Made by a program: the position numbers and the translations under genes
Virus genome (UHGV): UHGV-0105470
Direction: 5' to 3' (one strand)
Length of the DNA stretch: 35,353 nt
Source of the DNA: a virus
Part shown: positions 13,621 to 24,210 of the stretch, piece after piece
Position numbering within the stretch: position 1 is the first letter of the stretch
Layout of the letters: each line of letters begins with the position of its first letter
Notes under the pieces: generated by a model
What the model was told of the DNA's origin: nothing
Seen by the model: only the letters and a program-made list of their open reading frames with translations
The model's database searches: none

Positions 13621-13626
13621 ATAGAA

Positions 13627-13827
13627 TTATTCAGAGTCTGTAGCAGTCTCTTCTGTCTTAACTTCGAACTTTGCATCAACAGCATCAAGAAGTGCATCCA
13701 TAGACGCTTCTTGAATATCAATACCTGTTGCTACAGATAATCTGTCTGCAATTGCCATGATAGTGTTCTGCATAAATTCTAGCTTCTTGTTAGCTTCGTA
13801 AAGTTCTTTATAAACGGTCTCGCTCAT
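13627..13827 (-). CDS. hypothetical small protein upstream of terminase (small terminase subunit not excluded)
   Basis: 66-aa ORF; SD GGAGAAAA before ATG at 13827. Confidence 0.4.
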   Translation of the reverse strand: MSETVYKELYEANKKLEFMQNTIMAIADRLSVATGIDIQEASMDALLDAVDAKFEVKTEETATDSE

Positions 13828-13863
13828 TATGTTTTCTCCAAATAGTTAACCACGTTTCCCCTT

Positions 13864-13887
13864 AAAAAAGACGGTACAGAGACCGTC
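13864..13887 (-). terminator. rho-independent terminator downstream of the tRNA array
   Basis: GACGGT-acagag-ACCGTC hairpin followed on the minus strand by a T6 run (plus aaaaaa 13864-13869). Confidence 0.55.
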
Positions 13888-14049
13888 AAGGAGAAACCAC
13901 AATGTACGTCAGAGACATACTGTATAAGGCTTCTTATAAAGTATAACTCTGTAAAAAAGCCCTGTCTAAAAATACTCTTCGGTAGCGAAAGGAAGAATAC
14001 TTATAGCAGGGCATTATTATTATTTTAATTGAGAGAGAGTAAAATAACT

Positions 14050-14125
14050 TGGAGAATCCGAAGGGACTCGAACCCTTATAGACCTGTTTTGCAGACAGGC
14101 ACATAGCCATTTCTGTCACGGATTC
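14050..14125 (-). tRNA. tRNA-Cys (GCA)
   Basis: Hand-folded cloverleaf: acceptor GAATCCG/CGGATTC, anticodon loop CTGCAAA, T-loop TTCGAGT, CCA encoded. Confidence 0.85.
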
Positions 14126-14129
14126 AAAT

Positions 14130-14222
14130 TGGAGGAAGATACCAGACTTGAACTGGTACACCGATTTCTCAGCTACTGGCAGTTTAGCAAACTGCTCCCT
14201 TACCTTTTAGGGTTAATCTTCC
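14130..14222 (-). tRNA. tRNA-Ser (GCT), class II
   Basis: 93 nt; acceptor GGAAGAT/ATCTTCC; anticodon stem GCAGT/ACTGC with loop TTGCTAA; long variable arm; T-arm ACCAG-TTCAAGT-CTGGT. Confidence 0.85.
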
Positions 14223-14223
14223 A

Positions 14224-14958
14224 TTATTTCTGTAATGCGTTCTTCATTTCTGGTGTTGCAATAGTATCAATTACACCAGTTTTACAAGCATCATCAAACC
14301 AGTCTGGTAAGATACCTGCTAAGAACCCATTGATATTCGTTTTAAGGTACTCTGCAATAAGGGCAGCTTCTTCTTCAATCATCTGCACAACTTCATCTGC
14401 ATAAGCTGTAATCTTCGAGATACCTTCATTAATCTTACTAACAGCTTGGTTAGCTAAATCAGAAACAGTATCAAGACCTTTATCAATAGCATCTTGTAAG
14501 TCACTTAATACATCATTAACACCGTCTAGTGCACTGTTAATTGTGTCAATAGCTTTTTGACCATACTCTGTAGCAACACCCATAATACCACTAAATGGTG
14601 TACAACCAACTTGCTCTCCTGCTGCACCCATAACATTGGAGTAGCCTTTTGCTACCTGCATACGTGAGGAAAACTCATCAATAGACTTTTGACCATAATC
14701 TGTCAATGTCTTAGTGGTTGATGTAGTGCTTGTCAGACTCGTTGTAAAGCTATTAAGCAGAGCTGTTGTAAGTCCAGCAGCAATGAGCTTATCCTTCATT
14801 GTAGGGTCTGTTACAGAGCTAATAGAGCTTACAAGTGATGTAGAGGCAGCCACGGTTCCACCTAGAACTGCTGCACCAGTAATAAGGGGATTAGAAAACC
14901 CTCTACCGGTTTTTAAGAGATTAAAAATCTCCTTACCTTGTTCTGTCATCTCTTTCAT
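14224..14958 (-). CDS. hypothetical protein (Ser/Thr-rich N-terminal half, helical acidic C-terminal half) embedded in tRNA array
   Basis: ORF-track start (GTG at 15021) overlaps tRNA-Phe; ATG at 14956-14958 with SD AAAGGTG is the likelier start. Confidence 0.55.
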   Translation of the reverse strand: MKEMTEQGKEIFNLLKTGRGFSNPLITGAAVLGGTVAASTSLVSSISSVTDPTMKDKLIAAGLTTALLNSFTTSLTSTTSTTKTLTDYGQKSIDEFSSRMQVAKGYSNVMGAAGEQVGCTPFSGIMGVATEYGQKAIDTINSALDGVNDVLSDLQDAIDKGLDTVSDLANQAVSKINEGISKITAYADEVVQMIEEEAALIAEYLKTNINGFLAGILPDWFDDACKTGVIDTIATPEMKNALQK

Positions 14959-14974
14959 TAAGCACCTTTGAAAT

Positions 14975-15051
14975 TGGTAGTCCAGTGGGATTTGAACCCT
15001 CTTCTCATGTTTTTCAGACACGCGCTTTAACCATATAAGCTACTTGGACTA
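14975..15051 (-). tRNA. tRNA-Phe (GAA)
   Basis: Anticodon stem CGTGT/ACATG with loop CTGAAAA; T-loop TTCAAAT; acceptor TAGTCCA/TGGACTA; exact ends ambiguous by 1 nt. Confidence 0.7.
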
Positions 15052-15056
15052 TAAAT

Positions 15057-15132
15057 TGGGGTGACCTACGGGATTTGAACCCGTATAGACCATGTTCACA
15101 GCATGGGTCATTACCTTTTATGATAAGGCCAC
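15057..15132 (-). tRNA. tRNA-His (GTG)
   Basis: D-stem TCAT/ATGA, anticodon stem CCATG/CATGG with loop CTGTGAA, C73 discriminator, CCA encoded. Confidence 0.85.
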
Positions 15133-15163
15133 ATTTAAGGACTCTCGTAAGAACCCTTAGAAG

Positions 15164-15239
15164 TGGCAGCGGCATAAGGATTTGAACCTTAATAAGACAG
15201 CTTCAGAGACTGTTGCATTGCCAGTTATGCTATACCGCT
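15164..15239 (-). tRNA. tRNA-Gln (CTG)
   Basis: D-stem GCAT/ATGC, anticodon loop CTCTGAA, T-arm TAAGG-TTCAAAT-CCTTA, G73. Confidence 0.8.
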
Positions 15240-15244
15240 AAATT

Positions 15245-15323
15245 TGGTACTCCATATCGGATTCGAACCGATACATAACACAGATTTTAAGTCTGGCCTC
15301 TCTGCCAATTGGAGTAATGGAGC
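15245..15323 (-). tRNA. tRNA-Leu (TAA)-like, atypical class-I architecture
   Basis: 79 nt; acceptor GCTCCAT/ATGGAGT; anticodon stem CCAGA/TCTGT with loop CTTAAAA; variable loop only 7 nt; A73; T-arm ATCGG-TTCGAAT-CCGAT. Confidence 0.55.
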
Positions 15324-15325
15324 AT

Positions 15326-15401
15326 TGGCGGGGGATGTTGGAATTGAACCAACTTCTTCGATTTCAAAGACCGAGGTTTTAACCTTGTAAACTAATCCCC
15401 T
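15326..15401 (-). tRNA. tRNA-Gln (TTG)
   Basis: Acceptor AGGGGAT/ATCCCCC with 1-72 mismatch, D-stem GTTT/AAAC, anticodon stem TCGGT/ATCGA with loop CTTTGAA, G73. Confidence 0.8.
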
Positions 15402-15409
15402 TTAAATCT

Positions 15410-15967
15410 TTACTTTCTTAGTGGATGAATAAAGAATGCCAACATAACTCTTTCCCTTGAGAATGCTCTTTCTTCTGGGACAACACTTTTAAGTTTCCAC
15501 CCAACATAAATTCTCCAGTAGAATTGCTTACCAAAGACTTTAATTGACGGGATAAAAGCGAATAATCCCCAAGCATTACTGTTCCACATTAGGAGATAAC
15601 CTGTCTGATTATCTTCAGGGTTAGAACTTACATTGATATTACCTTTCCACTTAGTAACATCTTTTACATCTCTTCCTAACACATGGTAAGAGAAGTTATA
15701 AGCTTTGTTTCTCCAGAGCCAACCAACTCTCTGCATATAGACACCAAGCTTACCAATCTTTCTAATCTTAGCCCATCGTTCGACATGACCTTTATCACCA
15801 TCAATTGGGTTGTCATATGTCTCCATCCATCTGAATCCAAAAGGGAGATGTCCTTTCTTCTCACTGTAGAATGGAACTACGAAAGGTGCTAAGATAACTG
15901 CTAAGATTGCTGCAAATGGCTCTAACAAAGCTAAGAAAATCCATGAAGCATACTTCAAATATCTCAT
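15410..15967 (-). CDS. hypothetical membrane protein embedded in tRNA array
   Basis: 185-aa ORF with hydrophobic N-terminus (WIFLALLEPFAAILAVILAPFVVPF); flanked by tRNA genes. Confidence 0.55.
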   Translation of the reverse strand: MRYLKYASWIFLALLEPFAAILAVILAPFVVPFYSEKKGHLPFGFRWMETYDNPIDGDKGHVERWAKIRKIGKLGVYMQRVGWLWRNKAYNFSYHVLGRDVKDVTKWKGNINVSSNPEDNQTGYLLMWNSNAWGLFAFIPSIKVFGKQFYWRIYVGWKLKSVVPEERAFSRERVMLAFFIHPLRK

Positions 15968-15986
15968 CTAAATAGCCTCTTTAAAT

Positions 15987-16062
15987 TGGCGCAGGATAAG
16001 GGATTCGAACCCCTATTAACAGCTTCGTAGACTGTTGCTCTATCCATTTGAACTAATCCTGC
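15987..16062 (-). tRNA. tRNA-Arg (ACG)
   Basis: Acceptor GCAGGAT/ATCCTGC, anticodon stem ACAGT/GCTGT with loop CTACGAA, T-loop TTCGAAT. Confidence 0.85.
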
Positions 16063-16067
16063 AAAAC

Positions 16068-16145
16068 TGGTGTTCCAAGACGGATTCGAACCGTCACTAA
16101 TACAAGGTTTGAGCTTGCATCCTCTGCCAATTGGGATACTGGAAC
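16068..16145 (-). tRNA. tRNA-Leu (CAA)-like, atypical class-I architecture
   Basis: 78 nt; acceptor GTTCCAG/TTGGAAC; anticodon stem GCAAG/CTTGT with loop CTCAAAC; 6-nt variable loop; A73; shares AATTGGCAG D-loop with 15245-15323. Confidence 0.55.
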
Positions 16146-16146
16146 A

Positions 16147-16222
16147 TGGTACTCACTAAAGGACTTGAACCTTTTTTCTTCATCTTGTAAGGGTGATGTT
16201 TTACCATATAAACTAAGCGAGT
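16147..16222 (-). tRNA. tRNA-Val (TAC)
   Basis: Acceptor ACTCGCT/AGTGAGT, D-stem GTTT/AAAC, anticodon loop CTTACAA, T-arm AAAGG-TTCAAGT-CCTTT. Confidence 0.85.
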
Positions 16223-16318
16223 ATGAAAGAGGTCTGAAGTTGTGCCGCTAACTCAACTCCGTGGAATTTGTTATGGTCTTCAGTTGACTCAAAGCGGTCT
16301 TTCACTTGACCTCTAAAT

Positions 16319-16394
16319 TGGTGCTCCCACAAGGATTCGAACCCTGATAAGTTGCTTACAAGGCAACCGTAATAGCCAATTATACGATAGGAGC
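16319..16394 (-). tRNA. tRNA-Thr (TGT)
   Basis: Acceptor GCTCCTA/TGGGAGC, anticodon stem GTTGC/GCAAC with loop CTTGTAA, T-loop TTCGAAT. Confidence 0.85.
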
Positions 16395-16401
16395 ATTAAT
16401 T

Positions 16402-16476
16402 TGGAGCATCCAGAGGGAATCGAACCCTCAACCTCAGTTTGGAAGACTGTAATTTTCCCGTTTAAACTATGGATGC
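16402..16476 (-). tRNA. tRNA-Gly (TCC)
   Basis: Acceptor GCATCCA/TGGATGC, anticodon loop CTTCCAA, T-arm GAGGG-TTCGATT-CCCTC. Confidence 0.8.
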
Positions 16477-16482
16477 ACTAAT

Positions 16483-16558
16483 TGGTGGAGTCACTGAGAA
16501 TTGAACTCAGTTCCCAAGTTTGCAAAACTCGAATTTTAACCATATAAACTATGACCCC
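16483..16558 (-). tRNA. tRNA-Ala (TGC)
   Basis: G3-U70 wobble in acceptor (Ala identity element), anticodon loop TTTGCAA, T-arm CTGAG-TTCAATT-CTCAG. Confidence 0.85.
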
Positions 16559-16564
16559 ATTGCT

Positions 16565-16640
16565 TGGTACAGGTGGAGGGAATTGAACCCATCGTCTTAC
16601 TGATTAAGAGTCAGCCGCATAACCATTTTGCTACACCTGC
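16565..16640 (-). tRNA. tRNA-Lys (CTT)
   Basis: Acceptor GCAGGTG/CACCTGT, anticodon stem GCTGA/TCAGT with loop CTCTTAA; T-stem only 3 clean bp. Confidence 0.7.
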
Positions 16641-16647
16641 ATTAATT

Positions 16648-16725
16648 TGGTAGGAGACAAGGGATTCGAACCCTCAAACACCAACTTCTAAGGATGGTAG
16701 GTTTACCAATTACCGTCAATCTCCC
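16648..16725 (-). tRNA. tRNA-Leu (TAG)-like, atypical class-I architecture
   Basis: 78 nt; acceptor GGGAGAT/GTCTCCT (two G-U); anticodon stem CCATC/GTTGG with loop CTTAGAA; 5-nt variable loop; A73. Confidence 0.5.
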
Positions 16726-16977
16726 ATTAAATCTTTTTAGAGAACTTCTAAGAACCTAAGCAACAAGGTTCCACAACAAGCTGTAATAACCTTAGAAGCC
16801 CTCTAAAAAGACCTAATTTGGTCTTTGCATAGTCTTGTTTAATCCGGTGACTAGAACCTTTGGAGAGCTTGATATATCTCTTCTCCGTGACACCTACTAG
16901 GTGCTTTATCAGTGTACGACAATACACGAGGGATAAACCGAAAATGCGAGCAAGCATGGACGGTGTAAATCTTATTA

Positions 16978-17067
16978 GGCGGTAAGTAAAGGAGTCGAAC
17001 CCTCACCGTATCTCTACAGTGGCAACAGTTTTCAAGACTGTTTGGCTGCCATTAGCCGCTACCTACC
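16978..17067 (-). tRNA. tRNA-Ser (TGA), class II
   Basis: 90 nt; acceptor GGTAGGT/ACTTACC; anticodon stem ACAGT/ACTGT with loop CTTGAAA; long variable arm; T-loop TTCGACT; 3' CCA not fully encoded. Confidence 0.8.
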
Positions 17068-17080
17068 CCTAATAAGATTT

Positions 17081-17163
17081 TGGCATGGGACGGAGGAGTT
17101 GAACCCCTTTGAAACGGTTTTGGAGGCCGTTGCTCATGCCTTAGAGTCTTAACATCGTCCCAT
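17081..17163 (-). tRNA. tRNA-Trp (CCA)-like, atypical 83 nt
   Basis: Acceptor ATGGGAC/GTCCCAT, Trp-type anticodon loop CTCCAAA, T-loop TTCAACT, G73 CCA; 5' half about 7 nt longer than canonical. Confidence 0.5.
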
Positions 17164-17305
17164 ACTGTAATTCGAAGCTTACCGTATTTTCACAACACTG
17201 TAAAGCCCCTTCTCAGATTATTTACATGTTCTGGAAAACATGAGATACAGACCACCTCCTTACACGGAGACCCGATAAGGTCGTCTAAGCAATCTGCTAA
17301 CTATT

Positions 17306-17382
17306 TGGCACACCCTACAGGATTCGAACCTGTAACTCAATGATTAGAAGTCATTTGCTCTGTCCAGTTGAACTAAGGGTGC
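17306..17382 (-). tRNA. tRNA-Arg (TCT)
   Basis: Acceptor GCACCCT/AGGGTGT, D-stem GTTC/GAGC, anticodon stem AATGA/TCATT with loop CTTCTAA. Confidence 0.85.
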
Positions 17383-17629
17383 ATTAATCTTTAAAAACTC
17401 TCTTAGAAAGCCCTTAAAGATGCCCACCTTATTAATCATACCGTGGGCTAGTACGCCAAATTCTTTGATGAGGGATTGGAAGACCTCACTGGTGTTTAGC
17501 CTATCAAGCTACTGCCAGAAAAACATTGTCGTTTGCATTTATTTTAAATTTGCAAAATAGACGCTACGCAACGAAAACTAAGGTTACTATAAAGTGGTCA
17601 CATCTAAATGTCAACAACTTTATTGAAAT

Positions 17630-17705
17630 TGGTACTGGTAGGTGGAATCGAACCACCGATGTTCCCTTATCAGGGGAGTGTTATAACCTTCTTAACTATA
17701 CCAGC
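17630..17705 (-). tRNA. tRNA-Ile (GAT)
   Basis: Acceptor GCTGGTA/TACCAGT, anticodon loop CTGATAA, T-arm GGTGG-TTCGATT-CCACC. Confidence 0.85.
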
Positions 17706-17706
17706 T

Positions 17707-17782
17707 TGGAGGTTCAGATGGGATTCGAACCCACATTCATAGGGCTTATGAGACCCTTGCATTACCTTATCTGCGACTGAAC
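17707..17782 (-). tRNA. tRNA-Met (CAT); elongator, initiator or Ile2 not distinguishable
   Basis: Acceptor GGTTCAG/CTGAACC, anticodon stem AGGGT/GCCCT with loop CTCATAA. Confidence 0.8.
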
Positions 17783-17787
17783 CATAT

Positions 17788-17863
17788 TGGTAGAAGTGGA
17801 GGGATTCGAACCCATCGCCTGTCAGATTAAAAGTCTGCCGCATCACCATTCTGCTACACTTCC
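17788..17863 (-). tRNA. tRNA-Lys (TTT)
   Basis: Acceptor GGAAGTG/CACTTCT, anticodon loop CTTTTAA; paralogous in sequence to the Lys (CTT) gene. Confidence 0.8.
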
Positions 17864-17869
17864 ATTAAA

Positions 17870-18009
17870 TTATCTTTGTAGATAAGCTACCCAGACTTGC
17901 TTAAGGTCTGTAGCGATGTGCCTTGTTGGGTTTAAATCTAGAATTTACCCTTTCACCCTTTGTGGTCGCATACTCACAGGTAAGCTTAATAACTTATCTA
18001 CAAAGATAA
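17870..18009. repeat. 16-17 bp inverted repeat pair (ttatctttgtagataag / cttatctacaaagataa) flanking about 105 bp
   Basis: Exact reverse-complement 16-mers at about 17870-17886 and 17993-18009 inside the tRNA array spacer. Confidence 0.6.
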
Positions 18010-18060
18010 TTACCAGACCGTTGTTTATCATCTTAAGTGCTACCATTACACCAACTCGAC

Positions 18061-18140
18061 ATCTGCCGAGTGAAGGAATCGAACCTTCGCCTTTTCTTTA
18101 CCGGAGAAATAGATTGTTTAAGTTTTGCTGTAAACGGTCT
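18061..18140 (-). pseudogene. tRNA remnant (intact T-arm, no pairing acceptor stem)
   Basis: T-arm GAAGG-TTCGATT-CCTTC and stem-loop TTTCT-CCGGTAA-AGAAA, but no 5' strand complementary to ACTCGGC and C at loop position 33. Confidence 0.35.
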
Positions 18141-18154
18141 TCTGTAAATTTGTT

Positions 18155-18235
18155 GAGCCAGACCAAGTTTTAAATTTTCAAAATTAAATTGGCTTTAAAT
18201 TTTAAGTAACTTGCTGAATTTGGTCTTCTGCTCCT
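18155..18235 (-). ncRNA. conserved spacer stem element in tRNA array (one of four copies)
   Basis: CCAGACC(R) ... (Y)GGTCTTCTG ends with compensatory R/Y covariation across copies at 18011-18145, 18155-18235, 18558-18625, 18714-18796. Confidence 0.4.
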
Positions 18236-18291
18236 TTAAAGAATACTCGTAAGAACCCTTTAAGGGAGGGGCTAAATAGCCCTCTCAAAAT

Positions 18292-18368
18292 TGGCGGTTA
18301 CGATGAGACTTGAACTCACATCATCTCCCGTGACAGGGGAGTATTTTATCCAGTTAAACTACATAACC
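18292..18368 (-). tRNA. tRNA-Asp (GTC)
   Basis: Acceptor GGTTATG/CGTAACC, anticodon stem CTCCC/GGGAG with loop CTGTCAC, T-loop TTCAAGT. Confidence 0.85.
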
Positions 18369-18374
18369 TTTATT

Positions 18375-18462
18375 TGGTGTGCCGTGTAGGAGTCGAACCT
18401 ACCGAGTCTCAATGACAAGGGATTTACAGTCCCCACCGCTACCATCTACGGGATAACGACAC
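18375..18462 (-). tRNA. tRNA-Tyr (GTA), class II
   Basis: 88 nt; acceptor GTGTCGT/ACGGCAC; anticodon stem GGGGA/TCCCT with loop CTGTAAA; long variable arm; T-arm GTAGG-TTCGACT-CCTAC. Confidence 0.8.
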
Positions 18463-18471
18463 ATTTAAATT

Positions 18472-18548
18472 TGGCGGTTAGTCAGGGATTCGAACCCTGT
18501 GCCATTCGCTTAACAGGCGACCGCACATACCTTATGTGCTTCCTAACC
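18472..18548 (-). tRNA. tRNA-Asn (GTT)
   Basis: D-stem GCAC/GTGC, anticodon loop CTGTTAA, T-arm CAGGG-TTCGAAT-CCCTG. Confidence 0.8.
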
Positions 18549-18628
18549 TTAATATATTGCCAGACCGTGTTTTTTTTTCTTTTATCCGCAAAAAGTAGTT
18601 TATTGCTGCATACGGTCTTCTGCAAAAT

Positions 18629-18705
18629 TGGAGGCGGGTGCAGGAGTCGAACCTGCCGATGCCATGCTAATGAGACATGTGAGACGCCCTTTCTCTATAC
18701 CCGCA
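18629..18705 (-). tRNA. tRNA with CAT anticodon (Met or Ile2), second copy
   Basis: Anticodon stem CATGT/GCATG with loop CTCATTA (pyrimidine at 37), T-arm GCAGG-TTCGACT-CCTGC, 1-72 mismatch. Confidence 0.6.
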
Positions 18706-18796
18706 ATTCTTAATGACCAGACCAAATCTCTTCTTTGTCCGATTTAGCTTCAGATGAATAAGATTAAGTTTGCTGTAATTGGTCTTCTGTCAAAAC

Positions 18797-18874
18797 TGGC
18801 GTTCCAGAAGGGATTTTAACCCTCAAATATCCACTTTGAAAGAGTGGTGACTATACCATTTTGTCTACTGGAAC
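18797..18874 (-). tRNA. tRNA-Glu (TTC)
   Basis: Acceptor GTTCCAG/CTGGAAC, anticodon stem CCACT/AGTGG with loop CTTTCAA; unusual T-loop TTAAAAT (A at position 56). Confidence 0.75.
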
Positions 18875-18881
18875 ATTAATT

Positions 18882-18958
18882 TGGTCTCTGTTGGAGGACT
18901 TGAACCTCCGGCCTTACCGCCCCAAACGGAACACTCTACCAAGCTGAGCTAAACAGAG
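18882..18958 (-). tRNA. tRNA-Pro (TGG)
   Basis: C1-G72 acceptor CTCTGTT/AACAGAG, D-stem GCTC/GAGT, anticodon loop TTTGGGG, T-arm GGAGG-TTCAAGT-CCTCC. Confidence 0.85.
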
Positions 18959-19082
18959 ATAAACTTTTCAAACTCTATGTAACCACTTTAACATTATTTT
19001 TTAGTGATTGTCAAGAACTTTTTTAAAATATTTTTCAGTATCTTAGAAAAGCTCTCATTTCGTTTCTATGTAGAACATATTA

Positions 19083-19112
19083 AAGGGTATCAAACACATT
19101 GTCAATACCCTT
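19083..19112. terminator. perfect 8-bp hairpin (AAGGGTAT-N14-ATACCCTT), possible terminator
   Basis: Inverted repeat followed by a T-rich tract on the plus strand; sits between the vWA gene 3' end and the tRNA array. Confidence 0.4.
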
Positions 19113-19123
19113 TTTAAAACTTT

Positions 19124-20538
19124 TTACCAGATATAACGGTCAACCATTACTGCTTTGAGCATTACGCTGATTGGGTCAAACTTCTCACCACCAAGCAGAG
19201 CTTTTAAAGTGGCTGGAGAGAACCCTGATACCATCGCTACACCATTATCCTTAACAGATACTTCGCAAGTACCATTACGGTTTGCTAAGTACCAGAATAC
19301 TAGTTGTGGCATTTCGTATCCAGCTTTTTTGTACTTACTCTGAATTGCTTCAAAGTTTGTACGACCATTTGCACCATCAACCTGATTAAACTCCATATCA
19401 GAGAAGATAATAAGCTTACTTGGCATATCTTTCTGAGTCAAGTTGTTTCTCTTACCTATCTCAAGAATACGGTCAAAGCTGCTTGTAAGTTAGTTGAACC
19501 ATATTCAACATGACGCATTACCTGACGATGACGGTTTCGTAAATCACCACTCAGTTCAATGAAATGAGGGTTTGTTGAATAGACCATTAACTCATCTTTA
19601 AAGCAACCTGTATTGCGTTCTGCTACATACAAGGCAAGTGATACACCAATATCAAGGGCAGTGATTGAACCAAGATTCACCCAAGACATTGAGCTTGAAA
19701 CATCAGTCATACACAAGATGTTCTCACCTTCTGCCATCCAGTTTGGTAGTGCTTTCCACTGCTCATTAGCAACATCTGCATTACCATGCTTGATAGACTT
19801 AATCACATCGTATGGGTAGACAGCACCAGCATTAATCTTAGCCTCACCTTTTGATAAGGACTCAATGTAAGCTTTGTAGCGTTCTCCATCTTTGCGGTTA
19901 AAGAGCTTTTGGTAACGTGCAGCAGCAAGAGACGGAATCTTACTGTAATCAATCTTACCAAACTCATTAGCAGAGATTTTTTGCTCAACCGTATCAGACA
20001 GTGCAGATAACAGTGTGCGGTATTCTTTCTCGCTTAAGTTTGCAAACTTACAGAAACGTTTTACAAACTGTTTGTGTCGTGGTTTTACTCGTGGTAACCA
20101 CTTGGCTGCTAAACCTGCTGTCTCAGGGTCTAGTAATGCTGCTTCTAAATGCTTAAAGGCATCTGTCTCAAAACGAGTACCTACGAAGATTTTGAAGTCA
20201 TCAAAACGACCAAGTTCTGCAATCTTATCCATAATACGAAGAAACTGTGTAGGCTCTAAAACTTTATCTTCGATTGCTTGAAGTAAAACAGTTCTGAAGG
20301 CTTTACGCTCACCCATACCTTCTCGTACATCTCGCATGTGAAGCAAAATACGAACTGCAACATCAACATCCTCACGCAAAGCTTTGTAGAACAAGTCTGG
20401 TAAGATTTCTACATTGCTACGGCTTGAACCAGCAGCTTTGTAAAAGTCCACAAGAGCAGACATTGATGAAGTATGGTTTACAGCACCATTTTCAGTTCGA
20501 CCTGCATGAAGGTGCGCATGTTTAAATAATTCGCTCAT
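19124..20538 (-). pseudogene. vWA-domain protein gene (Ro60/TROVE-like?) interrupted by a frameshift
   Basis: ORF 19456..20538 carries MIDAS motif DVSSS and ends ...GSTNLQAALTVFLR*; ORF 19124..19441 in a different frame carries the downstream vWA motif LIIFSDMEF; the two frames overlap at 19456-19492. Confidence 0.6.
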
Positions 20539-20619
20539 ATTTTACTCTCTTCTCTCATTTGTTGTTTGATGTGACAGACTTTAGAGCAACTTTGTAGAGT
20601 CTGTCAACACCTTTTAAAA

Positions 20620-20991
20620 TTATTTTTTGAGAGTCGCTACAGCAGAGAACGTTGGTTTGTTATCTGTCTGTGGTTGACCACCATTATCAGGAGTCTTCTT
20701 AGTGTCTGCTGCAAGTGCTTTCATCTCACCTGCTGAGTGAGTAAAGATAGTTTTACCGACCTCAATCATACTCTTGATGGTTACATCGTCTGTGTTTAAC
20801 CCGAACTCTGCAAGCTTAGCAGCATCCCTTGTAACAATCGCCTCAAACAGCTTTGCAGCAAACTCAGCAGAATTATCAATGGTCAGTTGAGCTTTTACGA
20901 GTGAGCTTTTGTTACGAGAGCCTTTTGGTCTTCCAGATGGGTTTCCAGATTGGCCTTTTTTAAACTGGCCTTTGTTTGTTCTGTTTTTCAT
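20620..20991 (-). CDS. hypothetical basic protein with N-terminal GNPxGRPKG motif
   Basis: 123-aa ORF; N-terminus NKGQFKKGQSGNPSGRPKGSRNK is a motif recurrent in small phage DNA-binding/packaging-associated proteins (recalled, not searched). Confidence 0.55.
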   Translation of the reverse strand: MKNRTNKGQFKKGQSGNPSGRPKGSRNKSSLVKAQLTIDNSAEFAAKLFEAIVTRDAAKLAEFGLNTDDVTIKSMIEVGKTIFTHSAGEMKALAADTKKTPDNGGQPQTDNKPTFSAVATLKK

Positions 20992-21240
20992 TGGTATGCC
21001 TCTTATAAGACCTCTTAAAAGGCTTTTAAGATAAAAGATAGATATCCAGAAAGATATCTGTTTAAATAGCCTTTTTAGAGGAACCTTTTAAGTTATCTTC
21101 TAAGTATTTATAAGCCTACACCTTGTCAAGTACTTTGTCAACAACTTTTTTAACTTGCAATAGTTCTTGACTTGTTGTATGGATTACTGTACCATCTTAC
21201 TTAAAGCTGTAGGTCTGCCTTGTTCTACAAAGGAGACTTA
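20992..21240. promoter_or_regulatory. divergent intergenic control region
   Basis: Between divergently oriented genes; contains TTGTCA/TTGACT hexamers, palindrome AGATATC-cagaaa-GATATCT and several CTTNNAAG motifs. Confidence 0.4.
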
Positions 21241-21402
21241 ATGAGAAAATCAAACAACCCGAAGAAAGGTAAAAATACCAATCACTGTAAGGAATCAAAA
21301 AGGGTAGAGTTACTCTACTATTCATCCTCTGAAATTGGTCTGTACCTGTTCTTTCAAAATTACAGAAGACAAGAGGATTATCTATGTGTAGTTCCCAATT
21401 AG
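21241..21402 (+). CDS. hypothetical small basic protein
   Basis: ATG at 21241 preceded by AAGGAGA; shorter than the ORF-track 21220 start. Confidence 0.4.
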   Translation: MRKSNNPKKGKNTNHCKESKRVELLYYSSSEIGLYLFFQNYRRQEDYLCVVPN

Positions 21403-21629
21403 AAATCGCAGATATTATAGATTTATATAAGACTGCAAAGAGTCATGGCTATATAACCTCAATTGGAAAGAATAGTCACTACGATGCTTTGACTGGAATG
21501 TATTTCAGGGCAATGGCTCAATCTAGTGAACAACACTTAATGGTTTCTTCCAGTGAGTTTACTTCGTTTCTCTATTGCAGCAAAATCATAAATCGCAGGA
21601 GAACTGAAAATGTTAACAGTAAGTTTTAA
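21384..21629 (+). CDS. hypothetical protein
   Basis: 81-aa ORF overlapping both neighbours by about 20 nt. Confidence 0.35.
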   Translation: MCSSQLEIADIIDLYKTAKSHGYITSIGKNSHYDALTGMYFRAMAQSSEQHLMVSSSEFTSFLYCSKIINRRRTENVNSKF

Positions 21630-22619: not shown

Positions 22620-23746
22620 TTAAAGCAAAGACTTACCCAGACTTCAAAGAATTTGTAAGGGGTTTCATTGCAAATGTAAAGGCTGGTAAGAGATATGATT
22701 TTAGAACATATCAAGAAGCTATTTTACCACTTACCTATAGTTCATATTGGCCTGAAGCTGATATCGCAGAAGTTGAGAAGTTTGACTACAAACCAGACTA
22801 CAAAGTACCTTTTAGTGATGATTTGCTTTACAGCATCGGTGCTCAAAGGAGAACTTCTGACTTCTTCATGGATTTACAATATGCAATTATCAATGGTAAA
22901 GACGTTGATACAGTGTATTGTGAATGGTTGGCAAGAGTTAAGCCGTTCTCAATGTTGAATGCTAAGTTGAAGGATGCCATTAAGCCACCAGTAATTACTC
23001 AGCAACCGACAAACCAAACAGTCAATGAAGGTGGAGCACTTACCCTAAGTGTTCTCGCAACTAATGCCACTGGGTATCAATGGAAGAAGGATGGCGAGAA
23101 TATCTCCAGTGCCACATCTGCAACCTATACAAAACAATCTGTAGTACCTTCTGACGCTGGTTCATACACTTGTGTTGTGACTGGTGCTGGTGGTTCTGTT
23201 ACTTCTAACCCTGCAACTATCACGGTAAAGGCTTTGCCAGTTATCACTCAGCAACCAGCAAATCAAGAAATCACTGAAGGTGAGACCTTAACGCTGAATG
23301 TTGTGGCAACTGGTGCAACAGGTTACCAGTGGAAGAAAGGTGAGGAAGTCATCCCAGACGCAACTGCTGCAACTTACACCAAAGAAGGTGCAACTGCTGC
23401 TGATGCAGGAAGCTACACTTGTGTTGTGACTGGTGCTGGTGGTTCTGTTACTTCTAACCCTGCAACTATCACGGTAAAGGCTTTGCCAGTTATCACTCAG
23501 CAACCAGCAAATCAAGAAATCACTGAAGGTGAGACCTTAACGCTGAATGTTGTGGCAACTGGTGCAACAGGTTACCAGTGGAAGAAAGGTGAGGAAGTCA
23601 TCCCAGACGCAACTGCTGCAACTTACACCAAAGAAGGTGCAACTGCTGCTGATGCAGGAAGCTACACTTGTGTTGTGACTGGTGCTGGTGGTTCTGTTAC
23701 TTCTAATGCGGCAACAGTTACAGTTAACCCAGCAGGGGAGGCATAA
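22616..23746 (+). CDS. protein with N-terminal domain plus three tandem Ig-like domains
   Basis: 376 aa; three 83-aa repeats with the Ig-type pattern GYQWKK(D/G)(G/E)E...AGSYTCVVTGAGGSVTSN; stop overlaps lysozyme start. Confidence 0.7.
   Translation: MIKAKTYPDFKEFVRGFIANVKAGKRYDFRTYQEAILPLTYSSYWPEADIAEVEKFDYKPDYKVPFSDDLLYSIGAQRRTSDFFMDLQYAIINGKDVDTVYCEWLARVKPFSMLNAKLKDAIKPPVITQQPTNQTVNEGGALTLSVLATNATGYQWKKDGENISSATSATYTKQSVVPSDAGSYTCVVTGAGGSVTSNPATITVKALPVITQQPANQEITEGETLTLNVVATGATGYQWKKGEEVIPDATAATYTKEGATAADAGSYTCVVTGAGGSVTSNPATITVKALPVITQQPANQEITEGETLTLNVVATGATGYQWKKGEEVIPDATAATYTKEGATAADAGSYTCVVTGAGGSVTSNAATVTVNPAGEA
23166..23706 (+). repeat. perfect tandem duplication, 249-bp unit (about 2.2 copies), encoding Ig-like domains 2 and 3
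   Basis: Sequence at x and x+249 matched in every block compared by eye from about 23166 to 23457; a diverged copy precedes at about 22990. Confidence 0.85.
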
Positions 23747-24210
23747 TGCAACTCTCAAGAAAAGGTTTAGAAGCCATTAAGTTCTTTGAAGGTCTGAAGT
23801 TAGAGGCTTACAAAGACTCTGCCGGAATCCCAACAATTGGGTATGGTACAATCCGTATTGACGGAAAACCTGTTAAGATGGGTATGAAAATCACGGCTGA
23901 ACAAGCTGAACAGTATCTTCTTGCAGATGTTGAAAAGTTTGTTGCAGCAGTGAACAAAGCTATCAATGTTCCTACTTCTCAGAATGAGTTCGATGCTCTT
24001 GTAAGTGAAACATACAACATCGGTATTACAGCTATGCAGGATTCTACATTTATCAAGCGCCACAATGCTGGTAATAAGGTAGGTTGTGCAGAAGCTATGC
24101 AGTGGTGGAACAAGGTTACAGTCAAAGGTCAGAAGGTCACTTCAAACGGTCTGAAAAATAGACGAAGAATGGAAGCTGACATTTATCTTGACAGTGTATA
24201 TCCAAAGTAA
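23746..24210 (+). CDS. endolysin, GH24 lysozyme (T4 e / lambda R-like)
   Basis: N-terminal FFEGLKLEAYKDSAGIPTIGYG matches the T4 lysozyme catalytic region (Glu, Asp, Thr); 154 aa single domain. Confidence 0.9.
   Translation: MQLSRKGLEAIKFFEGLKLEAYKDSAGIPTIGYGTIRIDGKPVKMGMKITAEQAEQYLLADVEKFVAAVNKAINVPTSQNEFDALVSETYNIGITAMQDSTFIKRHNAGNKVGCAEAMQWWNKVTVKGQKVTSNGLKNRRRMEADIYLDSVYPK

What the first reader, a model, noticed from the sequence alone, without database searches (positions are those of the whole stretch)
19124..20538. Frameshifted vWA-domain (possibly Ro60/TROVE-like) gene beside the tRNA array
ORF 19456..20538 has the MIDAS motif (CMTDVSSSM) and ends ...GSTNLQAALTVFLR*. The vWA domain continues in another frame in ORF 19124..19441 (...LIIFSDMEF...), and the two frames overlap within 19456-19492 with no homopolymer at the junction. 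The gene is therefore a pseudogene, carries an assembly error, or needs recoding. Ro60-type TROVE-vWA proteins bind tRNA-like Y RNAs, and this gene sits next to a tRNA array containing atypical tRNA-like RNAs. The TROVE assignment of the N-terminal 260 aa is from memory only.
Basis: partly seen in the sequence, partly recalled or inferred. Interest (0 to 1): 0.6.

Follow-up and report, generated by a model that had tools for sequence, protein, structure and literature searches.

The report
Broken phage Ro60-like gene, Y-like RNAs
A FelixO1-type phage gene for a ring-shaped, Ro60-like RNA-binding protein (orthologue of a published anti-defence protein) is cut in two by loss of one T from a TTTT run, and beside it, here and in many distant phages, lies an apparently undescribed family of small RNAs that look like its partners.

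Summary
The two ORFs exist as described (minus strand, 20538..19456 and 19441..19124). The break is a one-base deletion in a homopolymer: the window has TTT at 19475-19477, and every sequenced relative examined has TTTT and one intact 471-aa ORF. The same broken allele occurs in JGI, ENA and Logan assemblies, one at 57x coverage. It is therefore probably a real frameshift, not an assembler artefact; recoding is very unlikely.

New here: the tRNA array holds four paralogous RNA elements. Each has a covarying terminal helix, a conserved C-A-G-C-A-A motif and an invariant G after the helix. One (18147-18010) carries a circularly permuted tRNA-like module in the same arm order as bacterial YrlA Y RNAs.

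Covariance models find the family beside distant homologues (33-47% identity). All 224 reported model matches lie on the gene's strand, mostly within 500 nt, and this repeated in a held-out set. No Rfam family matches. Protein-RNA binding is inferred, not shown.

The parts
19124..20538 (-). Frameshifted orthologue of Bas63 gp130: a Ro60-like protein with a HEAT-repeat ring plus a vWA/MIDAS domain (Pfam DUF2828 + DUF7788). It is 1415 nt here and 1416 nt in relatives.
19456..20538 (-). ORF1, 360 aa: native residues 1-354 (the whole HEAT/TROVE-like part and the first half of the vWA domain, including D279-x-S281-x-S283 and T349), then 6 out-of-frame residues and TAG.
   Evidence: The exact product is found on 8-11 public contigs.
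19475..19477 (-). Site of the lesion: a T3 run (AAA on the + strand) where all relatives have T4. A one-base deletion puts the rest of the gene in the -1 frame.
   Evidence: Alignment A1.
19124..19441 (-). ORF2: the C-terminal half of the vWA domain (residues 367-471 of the intact protein, including MIDAS residue D381 in SDMEF). Possible starts are TTG at 19441 or ATG at 19426 (gene callers use the ATG, giving 100 aa). No evidence that it is translated.
20578..20607 (-). Sigma-70-like promoter match (TTGACA-18-TAAAGT, 10 of 12) upstream of the gene.
   Evidence: This is a consensus match only, and the total number of such sites is not above the shuffled expectation.
18985..19105 (-). Two sigma-70-like promoter matches (19105-19077 and 19014-18985, 10 of 12 each) between the gene and the first tRNA. 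The first lies inside a 12-bp hairpin.
18010..18147 (-). Long-form Y-like RNA candidate, 138 nt. In order:
- outer helix TTAC/GTAA;
- internal loop AGA/G;
- terminal helix AGACCGT/ACGGTCT;
- spacer TTA, then CAGCAA;
- anticodon-like hairpin;
- T arm GAAGG-TTCGATT-CCTTC;
- closed 7-bp acceptor stem ACTCGGC-AGAT-GTCGAGT;
- D arm GTGT-AATGGTA-GCAC.
It is a circularly permuted tRNA-like module, about 1 kb downstream of the gene on the same strand.
   Evidence: R1 match at 18026-18113, 41.1 bits, E 5.8e-7. Conserved in 12 Felixounavirus loci.
18155..18233 (-). Short-form element, 79 nt: outer helix GAGC/GCTC, AGACCAA/TTGGTCT helix, ATT-CAGCAA, no tRNA-like module.
18557..18625 (-). Short-form element, 69 nt, filling the spacer between tRNA-Met and tRNA-Asn: outer helix TTGC/GCAA, AGACCGT/ACGGTCT helix, ATG-CAGCAA.
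   Evidence: Weak R2 match at 18557-18622 (21.5 bits, E 0.61).
18714..18792 (-). Short-form element, 79 nt, filling the spacer between tRNA-Glu and tRNA-Met: outer helix TGAC/GTCA, AGACCAA/TTGGTCT helix, TTA-CAGCAA.
14050..18958 (-). Array of 26 tRNA genes, co-oriented with the gene. It hosts the four elements above.

Best explanation
The locus encodes the Felixounavirus orthologue of Bas63 gp130. This is a roughly 53-kDa protein with the Ro60 architecture: an N-terminal HEAT-repeat (TROVE-type) ring and a C-terminal vWA domain with a complete MIDAS site.

In this phage lineage one T has been lost from a TTTT run at 19475-19477. Translation therefore ends after residue 354, and the second half of the vWA domain, including MIDAS residue D381, falls in another frame.

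**Shown**
- The identity of the gene.
- The position and nature of the lesion.
- The Ro60-like fold, on a confident model of a 98%-identical intact homologue.
- Reproducibility of the allele across independent assembly pipelines.

**Inferred**
- The allele is a real, recent loss-of-function or split-gene mutation. This is tolerable because the gene is conditionally dispensable.

**From a preprint, not tested here**
- Bas63 gp130 is needed only against the Ppl defence, and gp130 alone rescues T7 on a Ppl host.

**How the intact system most likely works (inferred by analogy and comparative genomics)**
- The ring protein binds small RNAs encoded next to it on the same strand. These RNAs are defined by a terminal helix, a 3-nt spacer, a C-A-G-C-A-A motif and a G after the helix.
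- Some of the RNAs carry a permuted tRNA-like module, as bacterial YrlA does.
- The resulting Ro60/Y-RNA-like particle would act on host RNA-handling or defence factors. Known models are Rsr-Y RNA-PNPase and the Thermus phage Ro60 that attenuates PNPase.
- In the window the four RNA elements are intact while the protein gene is broken.
For: **Lesion**
- Alignment A1 shows T3 in the window and T4 in relatives.
- The interval is 1415 nt against 1416 nt, with intact 471-aa CDSs in Ro111lw, CL1, HY02, UAB_Phi87, Bas63, EF202P1 and ECP2307.
- None of 60 listed records shares the deletion.
- There is no other stop or indel; the repaired product is 461/471 identical to Bas63 gp130.

**Reality of the allele**
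- The exact junction is present in an IMG/VR contig that is 100% identical to the window over 11.1 kb.
- The exact 360-aa product is on 8-11 contigs from JGI/IMG, Logan and ENA. These include a SPAdes contig at 57.5x coverage, a MEGAHIT contig of 85.6 kb and a third scaffold.
- Those contigs differ from the window by an unrelated 1-nt indel at about 16874.

**Fold**
- AlphaFold2 model: pLDDT 88, pTM 0.88.
- Foldseek: the top 10 PDB hits are all Ro60, Rsr or TROVE.
- MIDAS residues D279, S281, S283, T349 and D381 are invariant in 60 homologues.

**Function of the orthologue**
- Preprint PMC11482910.

**RNA partners**
- Four paralogous elements in the window have covarying helices.
- Among 75 IMG/VR homologue loci (38-47% protein identity), there are 60 filtered CM hits in 41 loci. 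Of these, 35 lie within 500 nt of the gene, where only 6.4% of flanking DNA lies. Fourteen of the 41 loci have no tRNA at all.
- All 95 R1 hits and all 56 R2 hits are on the gene's strand.
- Helix covariation: 99% of cells paired and all 7 pairs with double changes in 50 sequences.
- The tRNA Levitt-pair equivalent covaries (C:G in 8, U:A in 4 of 14) although it was not used for selection.
- Held-out replication in 80 bacterial and MAG loci: all 73 hits are on the gene's strand, and 27 loci have a filtered hit within 400 nt upstream.
- The arm order (V or anticodon-like, then T, closed acceptor, D) and the same-strand proximity match the published description of YrlA (PMC4201824).
Against: **Against the fold and family assignment**
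- No TROVE sequence signal.

**Against a real allele**
- No reads were seen. The assemblies carrying the allele may derive from one biological sample, so a systematic platform error at this run is not formally excluded.
- A second window-lineage homopolymer contraction sits at 21607.

**Against the RNA-partner model**
- No experiment links the RNA elements to the protein.
- gp130 alone protects T7, which has neither these RNAs nor tRNAs, against Ppl. A phage-encoded RNA is therefore not strictly required for that activity.
- The conserved motif (CAGCAA) differs from the Ro60-binding motif of known Y RNAs (GNCGAAN0-1G or GGUCCGA).
- No Rfam Y-RNA family matches.
- About a third to a half of homologue loci show no element at the thresholds used.
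- The seed sequences were selected for pairing, so part of the covariation statistics is circular.
- The three short forms in the window score weakly with the models.
Confidence: 0.78

Rival explanations
1. The frameshift is a sequencing or assembly error. The phage really has TTTT and makes the full 471-aa protein.
For: - The lesion is a one-base contraction of a homopolymer.
- It is absent from every isolate genome examined.
- Another homopolymer contraction specific to this lineage lies at 21607.
- The window differs from near-identical ENA contigs by a 1-nt indel at about 16874, which shows that single-base indel differences between assemblies do occur.
Against: - The identical allele is in assemblies made by different pipelines and assemblers (JGI/IMG, Logan, ENA SPAdes, MEGAHIT). 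One has 57.5x coverage.
- A T4 run is short for systematic miscalling.
- Gene callers in those assemblies also find the split.
Confidence: 0.17
2. Programmed recoding: a -1 ribosomal frameshift or transcriptional slippage at the T run restores the full-length protein.
For: The shift needed is -1, and it would occur at or near a T run followed by an in-frame stop 17 nt downstream.
Against: - There is no X XXY YYZ slippery heptamer in GCA GCT TTG ACC.
- T3 is far below the run length known to support polymerase slippage (general knowledge).
- More than 80 relatives encode the protein in one frame, so there is no conserved recoding signal.
Confidence: 0.02
3. The allele is real but not null. The two fragments (residues 1-354 and about 367 or 372 to 471) are both made and reassemble into a working split vWA domain. 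Alternatively, the HEAT-ring fragment alone keeps RNA binding.
For: - ORF2 has possible starts (TTG at 19441, ATG at 19426) 14-30 nt after the ORF1 stop, which is compatible with re-initiation. Gene callers predict a 100-aa product.
- There are no further disabling mutations in either part.
- The whole HEAT part is in ORF1.
Against: - The cut falls inside the vWA fold, between MIDAS residues T349 and D381.
- Twelve or more residues are lost.
- No strong ribosome-binding site precedes ORF2.
- The absence of decay is equally expected for a recent null mutation.
Confidence: 0.1
4. The conserved helix-CAGCAA elements are not partners of the protein. They could instead be cis-acting signals (leader or operator, RNase processing sites, transcript-stability hairpins) or degenerate tRNA relics that travel with accessory-gene regions.
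For: - In many prophage-like loci the element sits 13-250 nt upstream of the gene's start codon, sometimes abutting the ribosome-binding site, like a leader.
- In the window, two short forms exactly fill tRNA-sized spacers between tRNAs.
- gp130 works in T7 without them.
Against: - A pure leader does not explain copies downstream of the gene, tandem arrays (five in L080) or copies kilobases away inside tRNA arrays.
- Nor does it explain the tRNA-like module with a covarying tertiary pair.
- An autoregulatory operator bound by the protein would still make the RNA a ligand of the protein.
Confidence: 0.25
5. The protein is a generic vWA/MIDAS protein-interaction module with an unrelated helical N-terminal domain. 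The Ro60 resemblance would then be superficial.
For: - There is no TROVE Pfam hit, and sequence identity to Ro60 is 13-16%.
- Helical-repeat domains can align by chance.
Against: - The three best PDB cluster representatives are all Ro60-family proteins.
- The domain order is the same.
- Adjacent tRNA-like RNAs parallel the rsr-yrlA arrangement.
Confidence: 0.05

Closest known systems
Bas63 (Escherichia phage JohannRWettstein, MZ501086) gp130, a counter of the Ppl defence (PhageMaP preprint, PMC11482910)
   Same: - Orthologue: 98% identity over 471 aa after repair.
- Same position: preceded by a DUF5681 gene and followed by the tRNA-Pro/Glu/Met... array.
- The same four RNA elements are present.
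- The preprint already notes Ro60-like structure and suggests that some 'tRNAs' may be Y RNAs.
   Different: - The window copy is frameshifted; Bas63's is intact.
- The preprint names no specific RNA. The candidates found here are inter-tRNA elements, not the annotated tRNAs.
Ro60/Rsr (TROVE + vWA) with Y RNAs (YrlA, YrlB, Yrn1) of bacteria and mycobacteriophages
   Same: - Protein: a HEAT ring plus a vWA/MIDAS domain in the same order.
- RNAs are encoded within a few kb on the same strand, often upstream, and often in several paralogues.
- Each RNA has a stem formed by its 5' and 3' ends with a conserved motif near the 5' strand.
- One class has a tRNA-like module with T arm, closed acceptor-like stem and D arm in that order, and a covarying 15:48 pair. 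A shorter class lacks it.
   Different: - No TROVE sequence-model match; the family is Pfam DUF2828+DUF7788.
- The conserved RNA motif is N-U-N-CAGCAA after a 7-bp helix plus a 3' G, not GNCGAAN0-1G.
- No Rfam hit.
- The window's long form also keeps an anticodon-like hairpin.
- No binding data.
Thermus phage phiLo Ro60 with Yrl1/Yrl2 (PMC12135203; PDB 9l5y, 9kop)
   Same: - Y-like RNAs are encoded next to the gene.
- A proposed role against host RNA decay or defence.
   Different: - phiLo Ro60 is a recognised TROVE protein.
- Its RNAs were picked by a CGAA motif and have no tRNA-like module described.
- Its target shown in vitro is PNPase. Here the only functional datum is anti-Ppl activity of the orthologue.
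Pfam DUF2828 (PF11443) / DUF7788 (PF25043); PHROG 850 'RNA-binding protein'
   Same: The repaired protein matches all three well above threshold. The family has thousands of phage members.
   Different: These are names without a tested function. No associated RNA is recorded for them in the libraries searched.
Circularly permuted tRNA genes and other tRNA-like ncRNAs (tmRNA, including two-piece forms)
   Same: - The T arm and 3' acceptor strand precede the 5' acceptor strand and D arm.
- Some distant copies carry N-CCA in the closing loop.
- tmRNA genes lie near several homologues.
   Different: - The ends are locked in a conserved extra helix with the CAGCAA motif.
- There is no evidence of processing to a functional tRNA.
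- There is no tag reading frame.

Membership tests
Ro60 / Rsr (TROVE-vWA) protein family | Toroidal HEAT-repeat (TROVE) domain followed by a vWA domain, as seen in solved Ro60 structures | tested here: met
   [not shown]
Ro60 / Rsr (TROVE-vWA) protein family | Match to the TROVE sequence family (Pfam PF05731) or detectable sequence homology to Ro60 | tested here: not met
   Pfam at E<=1 returns only DUF7788, DUF2828 and a weak VWA_2 match. phmmer and a 60-sequence profile against PDB sequences find no Ro60. NCBIfam returns nothing relevant.
Ro60 / Rsr (TROVE-vWA) protein family | Complete MIDAS motif (DxSxS ... T ... D) in the vWA domain | tested here: met
   D279, S281, S283, T349 and D381 are invariant in 60 homologues. 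In the window the first four lie in ORF1 and D381 lies in ORF2.
Ro60 / Rsr (TROVE-vWA) protein family | Binds Y RNA on the ring's outer surface and single-stranded RNA ends in the central hole | not testable with these tools
   This needs EMSA, CLIP or a structure of a complex.
Bacterial/phage Y RNA (YrlA-type) | Encoded within about 4 kb of the Ro60-type gene on the same strand | tested here: met
   - Window: the long form lies 979 nt downstream on the same strand.
- IMG/VR loci: 35 of 60 filtered hits lie within 500 nt, and all hits are on the gene's strand.
- Held-out loci: 27 of 80 have a filtered hit within 400 nt upstream, and all hits are on the gene's strand.
Bacterial/phage Y RNA (YrlA-type) | tRNA-like module with T arm, closed acceptor-like stem-loop and D arm in that order, with tRNA-type tertiary pairs | tested here: met
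   - Window 18088-18037 reads GAAGG-TTCGATT-CCTTC / ACTCGGC-AGAT-GTCGAGT / GTGT-AATGGTA-GCAC.
- Thirteen further long forms were found in distant loci.
- 99% of cells are paired and 21 of 23 pairs show double changes (on seeds selected for pairing).
- The 15:48 equivalent covaries, C:G in 8 and U:A in 4 of 14, without having been selected for.
Bacterial/phage Y RNA (YrlA-type) | Ro60-binding motif GNCGAAN0-1G (or GGUCCGA) near the 5' end | tested here: not met
   The conserved 5' motif is C-A/C-G-C-A-A, three nucleotides after the helix (C15, G17, C18 and A19 invariant in 50 sequences). The Felixounavirus copies have AGAAG just before the helix, which resembles CGAAG only loosely.
Bacterial/phage Y RNA (YrlA-type) | Match to a curated Y-RNA covariance model | tested here: not met
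   Rfam 15 gives no hit other than tRNA-type models on the window (E<=1 over 13500-21500 and E<=10 over 17850-18300). The same holds for seven of the best distant loci at gathering score. I could not verify which Y-RNA families Rfam 15 holds.
Pfam DUF2828 + DUF7788 (PHROG 850) | Scores above the curated cut-offs for both domains in this order | tested here: met
Programmed -1 frameshift genes | Slippery heptamer X XXY YYZ, a downstream stimulator, and conservation of the two-frame arrangement in relatives | tested here: not met
   The junction GCAGCTTTGACCG has no such heptamer. Relatives have a single frame.

The most novel reading that the evidence does not exclude
The DUF2828/DUF7788 proteins, which have thousands of members in phages and prophages, together with the helix-NUN-CAGCAA-...-helix-G RNAs encoded beside them, would form a second, sequence-divergent Ro60/Y-RNA-type ribonucleoprotein class that is widespread in phages.

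Its RNAs would come in short forms and in tRNA-mimicking long forms, often embedded in phage tRNA arrays. The particle would be an anti-defence or RNA-surveillance device, with Ppl as one target.

The window would then be a natural protein-null, RNA-intact variant of that system.
Probability: 0.5. Interest if true: 0.8.

Novelty: new variant of a known kind. Interest (0 to 1): 0.6.

Why it matters
**The frameshift alone is minor.**
- It is a probable natural knock-out of a conditionally dispensable anti-defence gene.
- It also warns annotators that two 'hypothetical proteins' here are really one broken gene.

**The context matters more.**
- A large phage protein family, known only as DUF2828 or 'RNA-binding protein', has the Ro60 fold.
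- Across very distant lineages it is linked to a conserved, covarying small-RNA family that no Rfam model matched, some members of which mimic tRNA.
- The 2024 preprint made only a loose suggestion that 'some tRNAs may be Y RNAs'. This work gives specific candidate RNAs with coordinates, motifs and mutations to test.
- It extends the Ro60/Y-RNA paradigm to common enterobacterial phages that are easy to manipulate (FelixO1, Bas63).
- It links that paradigm to phage tRNA arrays and to counter-defence.

Tried and rejected
**Searches that found nothing**
- Pfam TROVE, NCBIfam, and PDB sequence searches with a single sequence and with a 60-sequence profile: no Ro60 signal.
- Rfam Y-RNA or any other family on the window and on seven distant loci: only tRNA, tmRNA and group I intron hits.
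- Literature search for DUF2828: only incidental plant and tardigrade mentions.
- The preprint was searched for phenotypes of g129, g137 and g138, which overlap or adjoin the RNA region: nothing.

**Methods that had to be tightened or replaced**
- A relaxed scan for a T arm, closed acceptor and D arm (6 of 7 pairs) was too noisy. Only 7-of-7 hits outside called tRNAs were kept.
- Several top R1 hits are junctions of adjacent tRNAs, a false-positive class also described by Chen et al. They were removed by filtering on tRNA overlap, the motif and the helix.
- MAFFT on full-length elements misaligned the variable loops (A3). Loop-trimmed seeds were therefore used to build the models. The seeds are edited sequences; the searches ran on real DNA.
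- The first gap-folding script timed out.

**Hypotheses considered and rejected**
- -1 frameshifting or transcriptional slippage: rejected on sequence grounds.
- Read-through of the TAG by a possible suppressor-like tRNA: it would not restore the frame.
Full report
**1. What the window is**

The region matches 252 phage records at 80-99% identity. Nearly all are Felixounavirus (FelixO1-like) phages of Escherichia, Salmonella, Shigella and Citrobacter. ARAGORN finds 26 tRNA genes at 14050-18958, all on the minus strand, and Rfam agrees.

**2. The observation**

- On the minus strand, ORF 20538..19456 encodes 360 aa, with CMTDVSSSM, ending ...GSTNLQAALTVFLR*.
- ORF 19441..19124 encodes 105 aa, starts at TTG and contains LIIFSDMEF. 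Both ORFs exist as described.
- The interval is 1415 nt. Seven annotated relatives, Bas63 among them, carry one 1416-nt CDS of 471 aa at the same place. It is named variously 'hypothetical', 'vWFA protein', 'DUF2828 family protein' or 'RNA-binding protein'.
- An alignment of the junction shows a single difference that matters. The window reads GCAGC-TTT-GACC where all relatives read TTTT (A1). The run is at window 19475-19477.
- Inserting one T restores a 471-aa protein that is 461/471 identical to Bas63 gp130, with no other defect.
- ORF1 would give residues 1-354 plus LTVFLR. ORF2 corresponds to residues 367-471, or 372-471 from the ATG at 19426.

**3. Error or real allele?**

- None of the 60 listed phage records matching an 81-nt junction query shares the deletion.
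- The exact T3 junction is in one IMG/VR contig that is 100% identical to the window over 11.1 kb.
- The exact 360-aa product is recorded on 8-11 contigs from three collections: JGI/IMG, Logan and ENA.
- These include a SPAdes contig with 57.5x coverage, a MEGAHIT contig of 85.6 kb and a third scaffold of 85.6 kb.
- Over 7 kb these contigs differ from the window only by a 1-nt indel at about 16874.
- The allele is therefore not an artefact of one assembler, and it is most simply a real frameshift in a natural phage lineage.
- I could not see reads, and the assemblies may share one biological source, so a residual chance of systematic error remains.
- A comparison with three relatives found only one other lineage-specific frameshifting indel in coding DNA. 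It is A5 to A4 at 21607, at the very end of a small ORF.
- Recoding is very unlikely. There is no slippery heptamer, T3 is too short for slippage, and the relatives need no recoding.

**4. What the protein is**

- The repaired protein matches Pfam DUF7788 (E 2e-43) and DUF2828 (E 9e-30), plus VWA_2 weakly. TROVE is not matched.
- PHROG 850 'RNA-binding protein' matches end to end.
- Sequence searches of the PDB find nothing, even with a 60-member profile.
- The family is large: 2893 proteins at E<=1e-5 among the 8000 candidates scored.
- In 60 diverse members the MIDAS residues D279, S281, S283, T349 and D381 are invariant, as are many arginines in the N-terminal half.
- An AlphaFold2 model of P0001 (98% identical, intact) is confident: pLDDT 88, pTM 0.88.
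- Foldseek puts ten Ro60/Rsr/TROVE chains first, at E 6e-8 to 2e-6 and full length, and only then isolated vWA domains.
- The protein therefore has the Ro60 architecture, but it is not a member of the TROVE sequence family as currently modelled.

**5. What is already known**

- Bas63 gene 130 is the orthologue, with the same neighbours.
- A 2024 preprint (PMC11482910) reports that deleting g130 cripples Bas63 only on a host carrying the Ppl defence (an ATPase plus a PHP domain).
- The same preprint reports that gp130 alone, from a plasmid or inserted in T7, restores T7 plaquing on that host.
- It also notes that gp130 resembles Ro60 structurally and lies upstream of the tRNAs, and it speculates that some tRNA genes might be Y RNAs.
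- TROVE proteins in jumbo phages, and a Thermus phage Ro60 that binds two adjacent Y-like RNAs and attenuates PNPase, are also published.

**6. Link to tRNA arrays**

I fetched 75 IMG/VR loci encoding homologues of 38-47% identity.
- 37 have a tRNA or tmRNA within the flank, and 24 have four or more tRNAs.
- 19 have a tRNA within 1 kb.
- All 318 tRNAs are on the gene's strand.

**7. A conserved RNA family beside the gene**

Folding the inter-tRNA gaps of the window showed four paralogous elements on the minus strand: 18792-18714, 18625-18557, 18233-18155 and 18147-18010. Each has these features:
- an outer 4-bp helix that covaries between copies (TGAC/GTCA, TTGC/GCAA, GAGC/GCTC, TTAC/GTAA);
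- a small internal loop;
- a 7-bp helix (AGACCAA/TTGGTCT or AGACCGT/ACGGTCT);
- a 3-nt spacer followed by CAGCAA.

The fourth element encloses a complete but circularly permuted tRNA-like domain. In order it has an anticodon-like hairpin, a canonical T arm, a 7-bp acceptor stem closed by a 4-nt loop, and a D arm with GG. This is the arm order described for bacterial YrlA Y RNAs, which lie within 4 kb of rsr on the same strand (PMC4201824). All four elements are conserved in 12 Felixounavirus loci.

**8. The family in distant phages**

- A strict scan for a T arm, a 7-of-7 closed acceptor stem and a D arm found such modules in a dozen distant loci. All are on the gene's strand and outside called tRNAs. 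A mononucleotide shuffle of 1.5 Mb gave three hits.
- Every one of these modules is bracketed by a 6-9-bp helix of unrelated sequence and has C(A/C)GCA(A) three nucleotides after the 5' strand.
- A covariance model (R1) was built from 14 loop-trimmed seeds. Against 1.34 Mb it gave 95 hits at E<=0.1, all on the gene's strand.
- Many of those hits are short forms of 40-85 nt: helix, NUN-CAGCAA, an A-rich loop, helix, then G.
- After removing hits that overlap tRNAs or lack the motif, 60 hits remain in 41 of 75 loci.
- 35 of the 60 lie within 500 nt of the gene, where only 6.4% of the flanking DNA lies.
- 14 of those 41 loci have no tRNA at all.
- A core alignment of 50 elements has invariant C, G, C and A in the motif and an invariant G after the 3' strand. 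99% of helix cells are paired, and all seven pairs show double changes.
- The core model R2 gave 56 hits at E<=1, again all on the gene's strand, and these hits add eight more loci.
- The equivalent of the tRNA 15:48 Levitt pair covaries (C:G in 8, U:A in 4 of 14). It played no part in the selection.

**9. Held-out test**

Eighty loci from bacterial genomes and MAGs, with homologues of 33-42% identity that were never used for model building, were searched.
- R2 gave 27 hits and R1 gave 46, all on the gene's strand.
- After the same filtering, 41 hits remain in 32 loci.
- 27 loci have a hit within 400 nt. All are upstream of the gene, and all are followed by the conserved G.
- Some unfiltered R1 hits are tRNA-tRNA junctions, a known false-positive class.

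**10. Is the RNA family known?**

Rfam 15 gives nothing but tRNA, tmRNA and group I intron matches. This holds for the window and for seven of the best distant loci. Literature searches found no description. I cannot exclude a description in papers outside the held library.

**11. Interpretation**

*Shown:*
- a Ro60-fold gene, broken by a one-base deletion that is reproducible across assemblies;
- a strand-specific, covarying RNA family tightly linked to this gene family across very distant lineages, with a YrlA-like tRNA-mimic in its long forms.

*Inferred:*
- the RNAs are ligands of the protein, analogous to Y RNAs;
- the particle acts on host RNA-handling or defence proteins.

*Against a strict requirement for the RNAs:*
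- gp130 alone protects T7 from Ppl;
- the motif differs from known Ro60-binding motifs.

A cis-regulatory or processing role for the elements is the main rival. It fits the upstream copies, but it does not fit the downstream copies, the tandem arrays, the distant copies inside tRNA arrays or the tRNA-like modules.

**12. Verdict**

- The finding as written is correct in substance and modest in itself: a probable natural knock-out of a gene whose Ro60-like nature is already in a preprint.
- The surrounding RNA family raises the interest. It makes the Ro60/Y-RNA analogy concrete and testable in tractable coliphages.

Noticed in passing
window 21607-21610 (+ strand): A second lineage-specific homopolymer contraction: AAAA here against AAAAA in three relatives. 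It lies in the last codons of the small ORF 21384..21629, just before the ATG (21610) of the next gene. The small protein becomes 81 aa instead of 77. The ENA contigs of the same phage also call an 81-aa product.
   Followed up: partly
window 17165-17082 (- strand): An atypical tRNA-like element not called by ARAGORN.
- It has a 10-bp acceptor-like stem (GUAUGGGACG/CGUCCCAUGC), then CA (reading ...GCCA), and a T-arm-like hairpin (GGGGUUCAACUCC).
- An internal loop contains CUCUAAG.
- It gives a weak Rfam tRNA-Sec match (23 bits, E 0.57).
- Its fold z-score is -3.0.
   Followed up: partly
window 16223-16318 and 16726-16977, 17383-17629 (- strand): Other inter-tRNA gaps fold much better than shuffled sequences (z -3.9, -3.7 and -3.5). 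The region 17504-17688 gives a sub-threshold Rfam 'permuted tmRNA' match (29 bits, E 0.006). None contains the CAGCAA element.
   Followed up: no
window ~16874: The window has GATA-TATC where three otherwise identical ENA contigs, and three relatives, have GATAATATC. This 1-nt indel in non-coding DNA distinguishes the window's assembly from the ENA ones.
   Followed up: partly
window 18354 (tRNA-Asp, 18292-18368): tRNA-Asp is one base shorter than in three relatives; an A is missing in the D-loop region.
   Followed up: no
window 22988-23787: There is a repetitive Ig-like-domain gene. The public assemblies of the same phage differ here in repeat number or placement (secondary BLAST pieces at 79-90% identity). 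The region is therefore assembly-sensitive.
   Followed up: no
window 19113-19082 (- strand): A 12-bp hairpin (AAAGGGTAT...ATACCCTTT) immediately after the gene's stop codon encloses the -35 hexamer of a strong promoter-like site for the tRNA array.
   Followed up: no
L038, L040, L045, L057 (12619-13092), L060, L062, L033: Several distant phages encode a tmRNA 1-7 kb downstream of their DUF2828-type gene, on the same strand. ARAGORN missed the one in L057, but Rfam found it.
   Followed up: no
L037 1824-1862, L050 11563-11618, L080 11843-11900 and 14527-14582: In some distant long-form elements the loop closing the acceptor stem reads N-CCA plus a few bases. RNase P cleavage would therefore leave a CCA-ended 3' half, as reported for M. 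smegmatis YrlA.
   Followed up: partly
L080 11383-12113: Five elements in tandem (three short, two long) directly follow the gene's stop codon.
   Followed up: partly
L167 3786-3873, L149 1138-1252, L159 1408-1524: In some held-out loci the helix-CAGCAA frame encloses a sequence that ARAGORN calls an ordinary tRNA. The apical module of the family seems to be variable.
   Followed up: no
cluster of P0001 (P0131 397 aa; also P0009 423 aa, P0012 403 aa, P0015 333 aa): Other shortened versions of the same protein occur in public Felixounavirus assemblies, so truncation of this gene may be recurrent. They were not examined.
   Followed up: no
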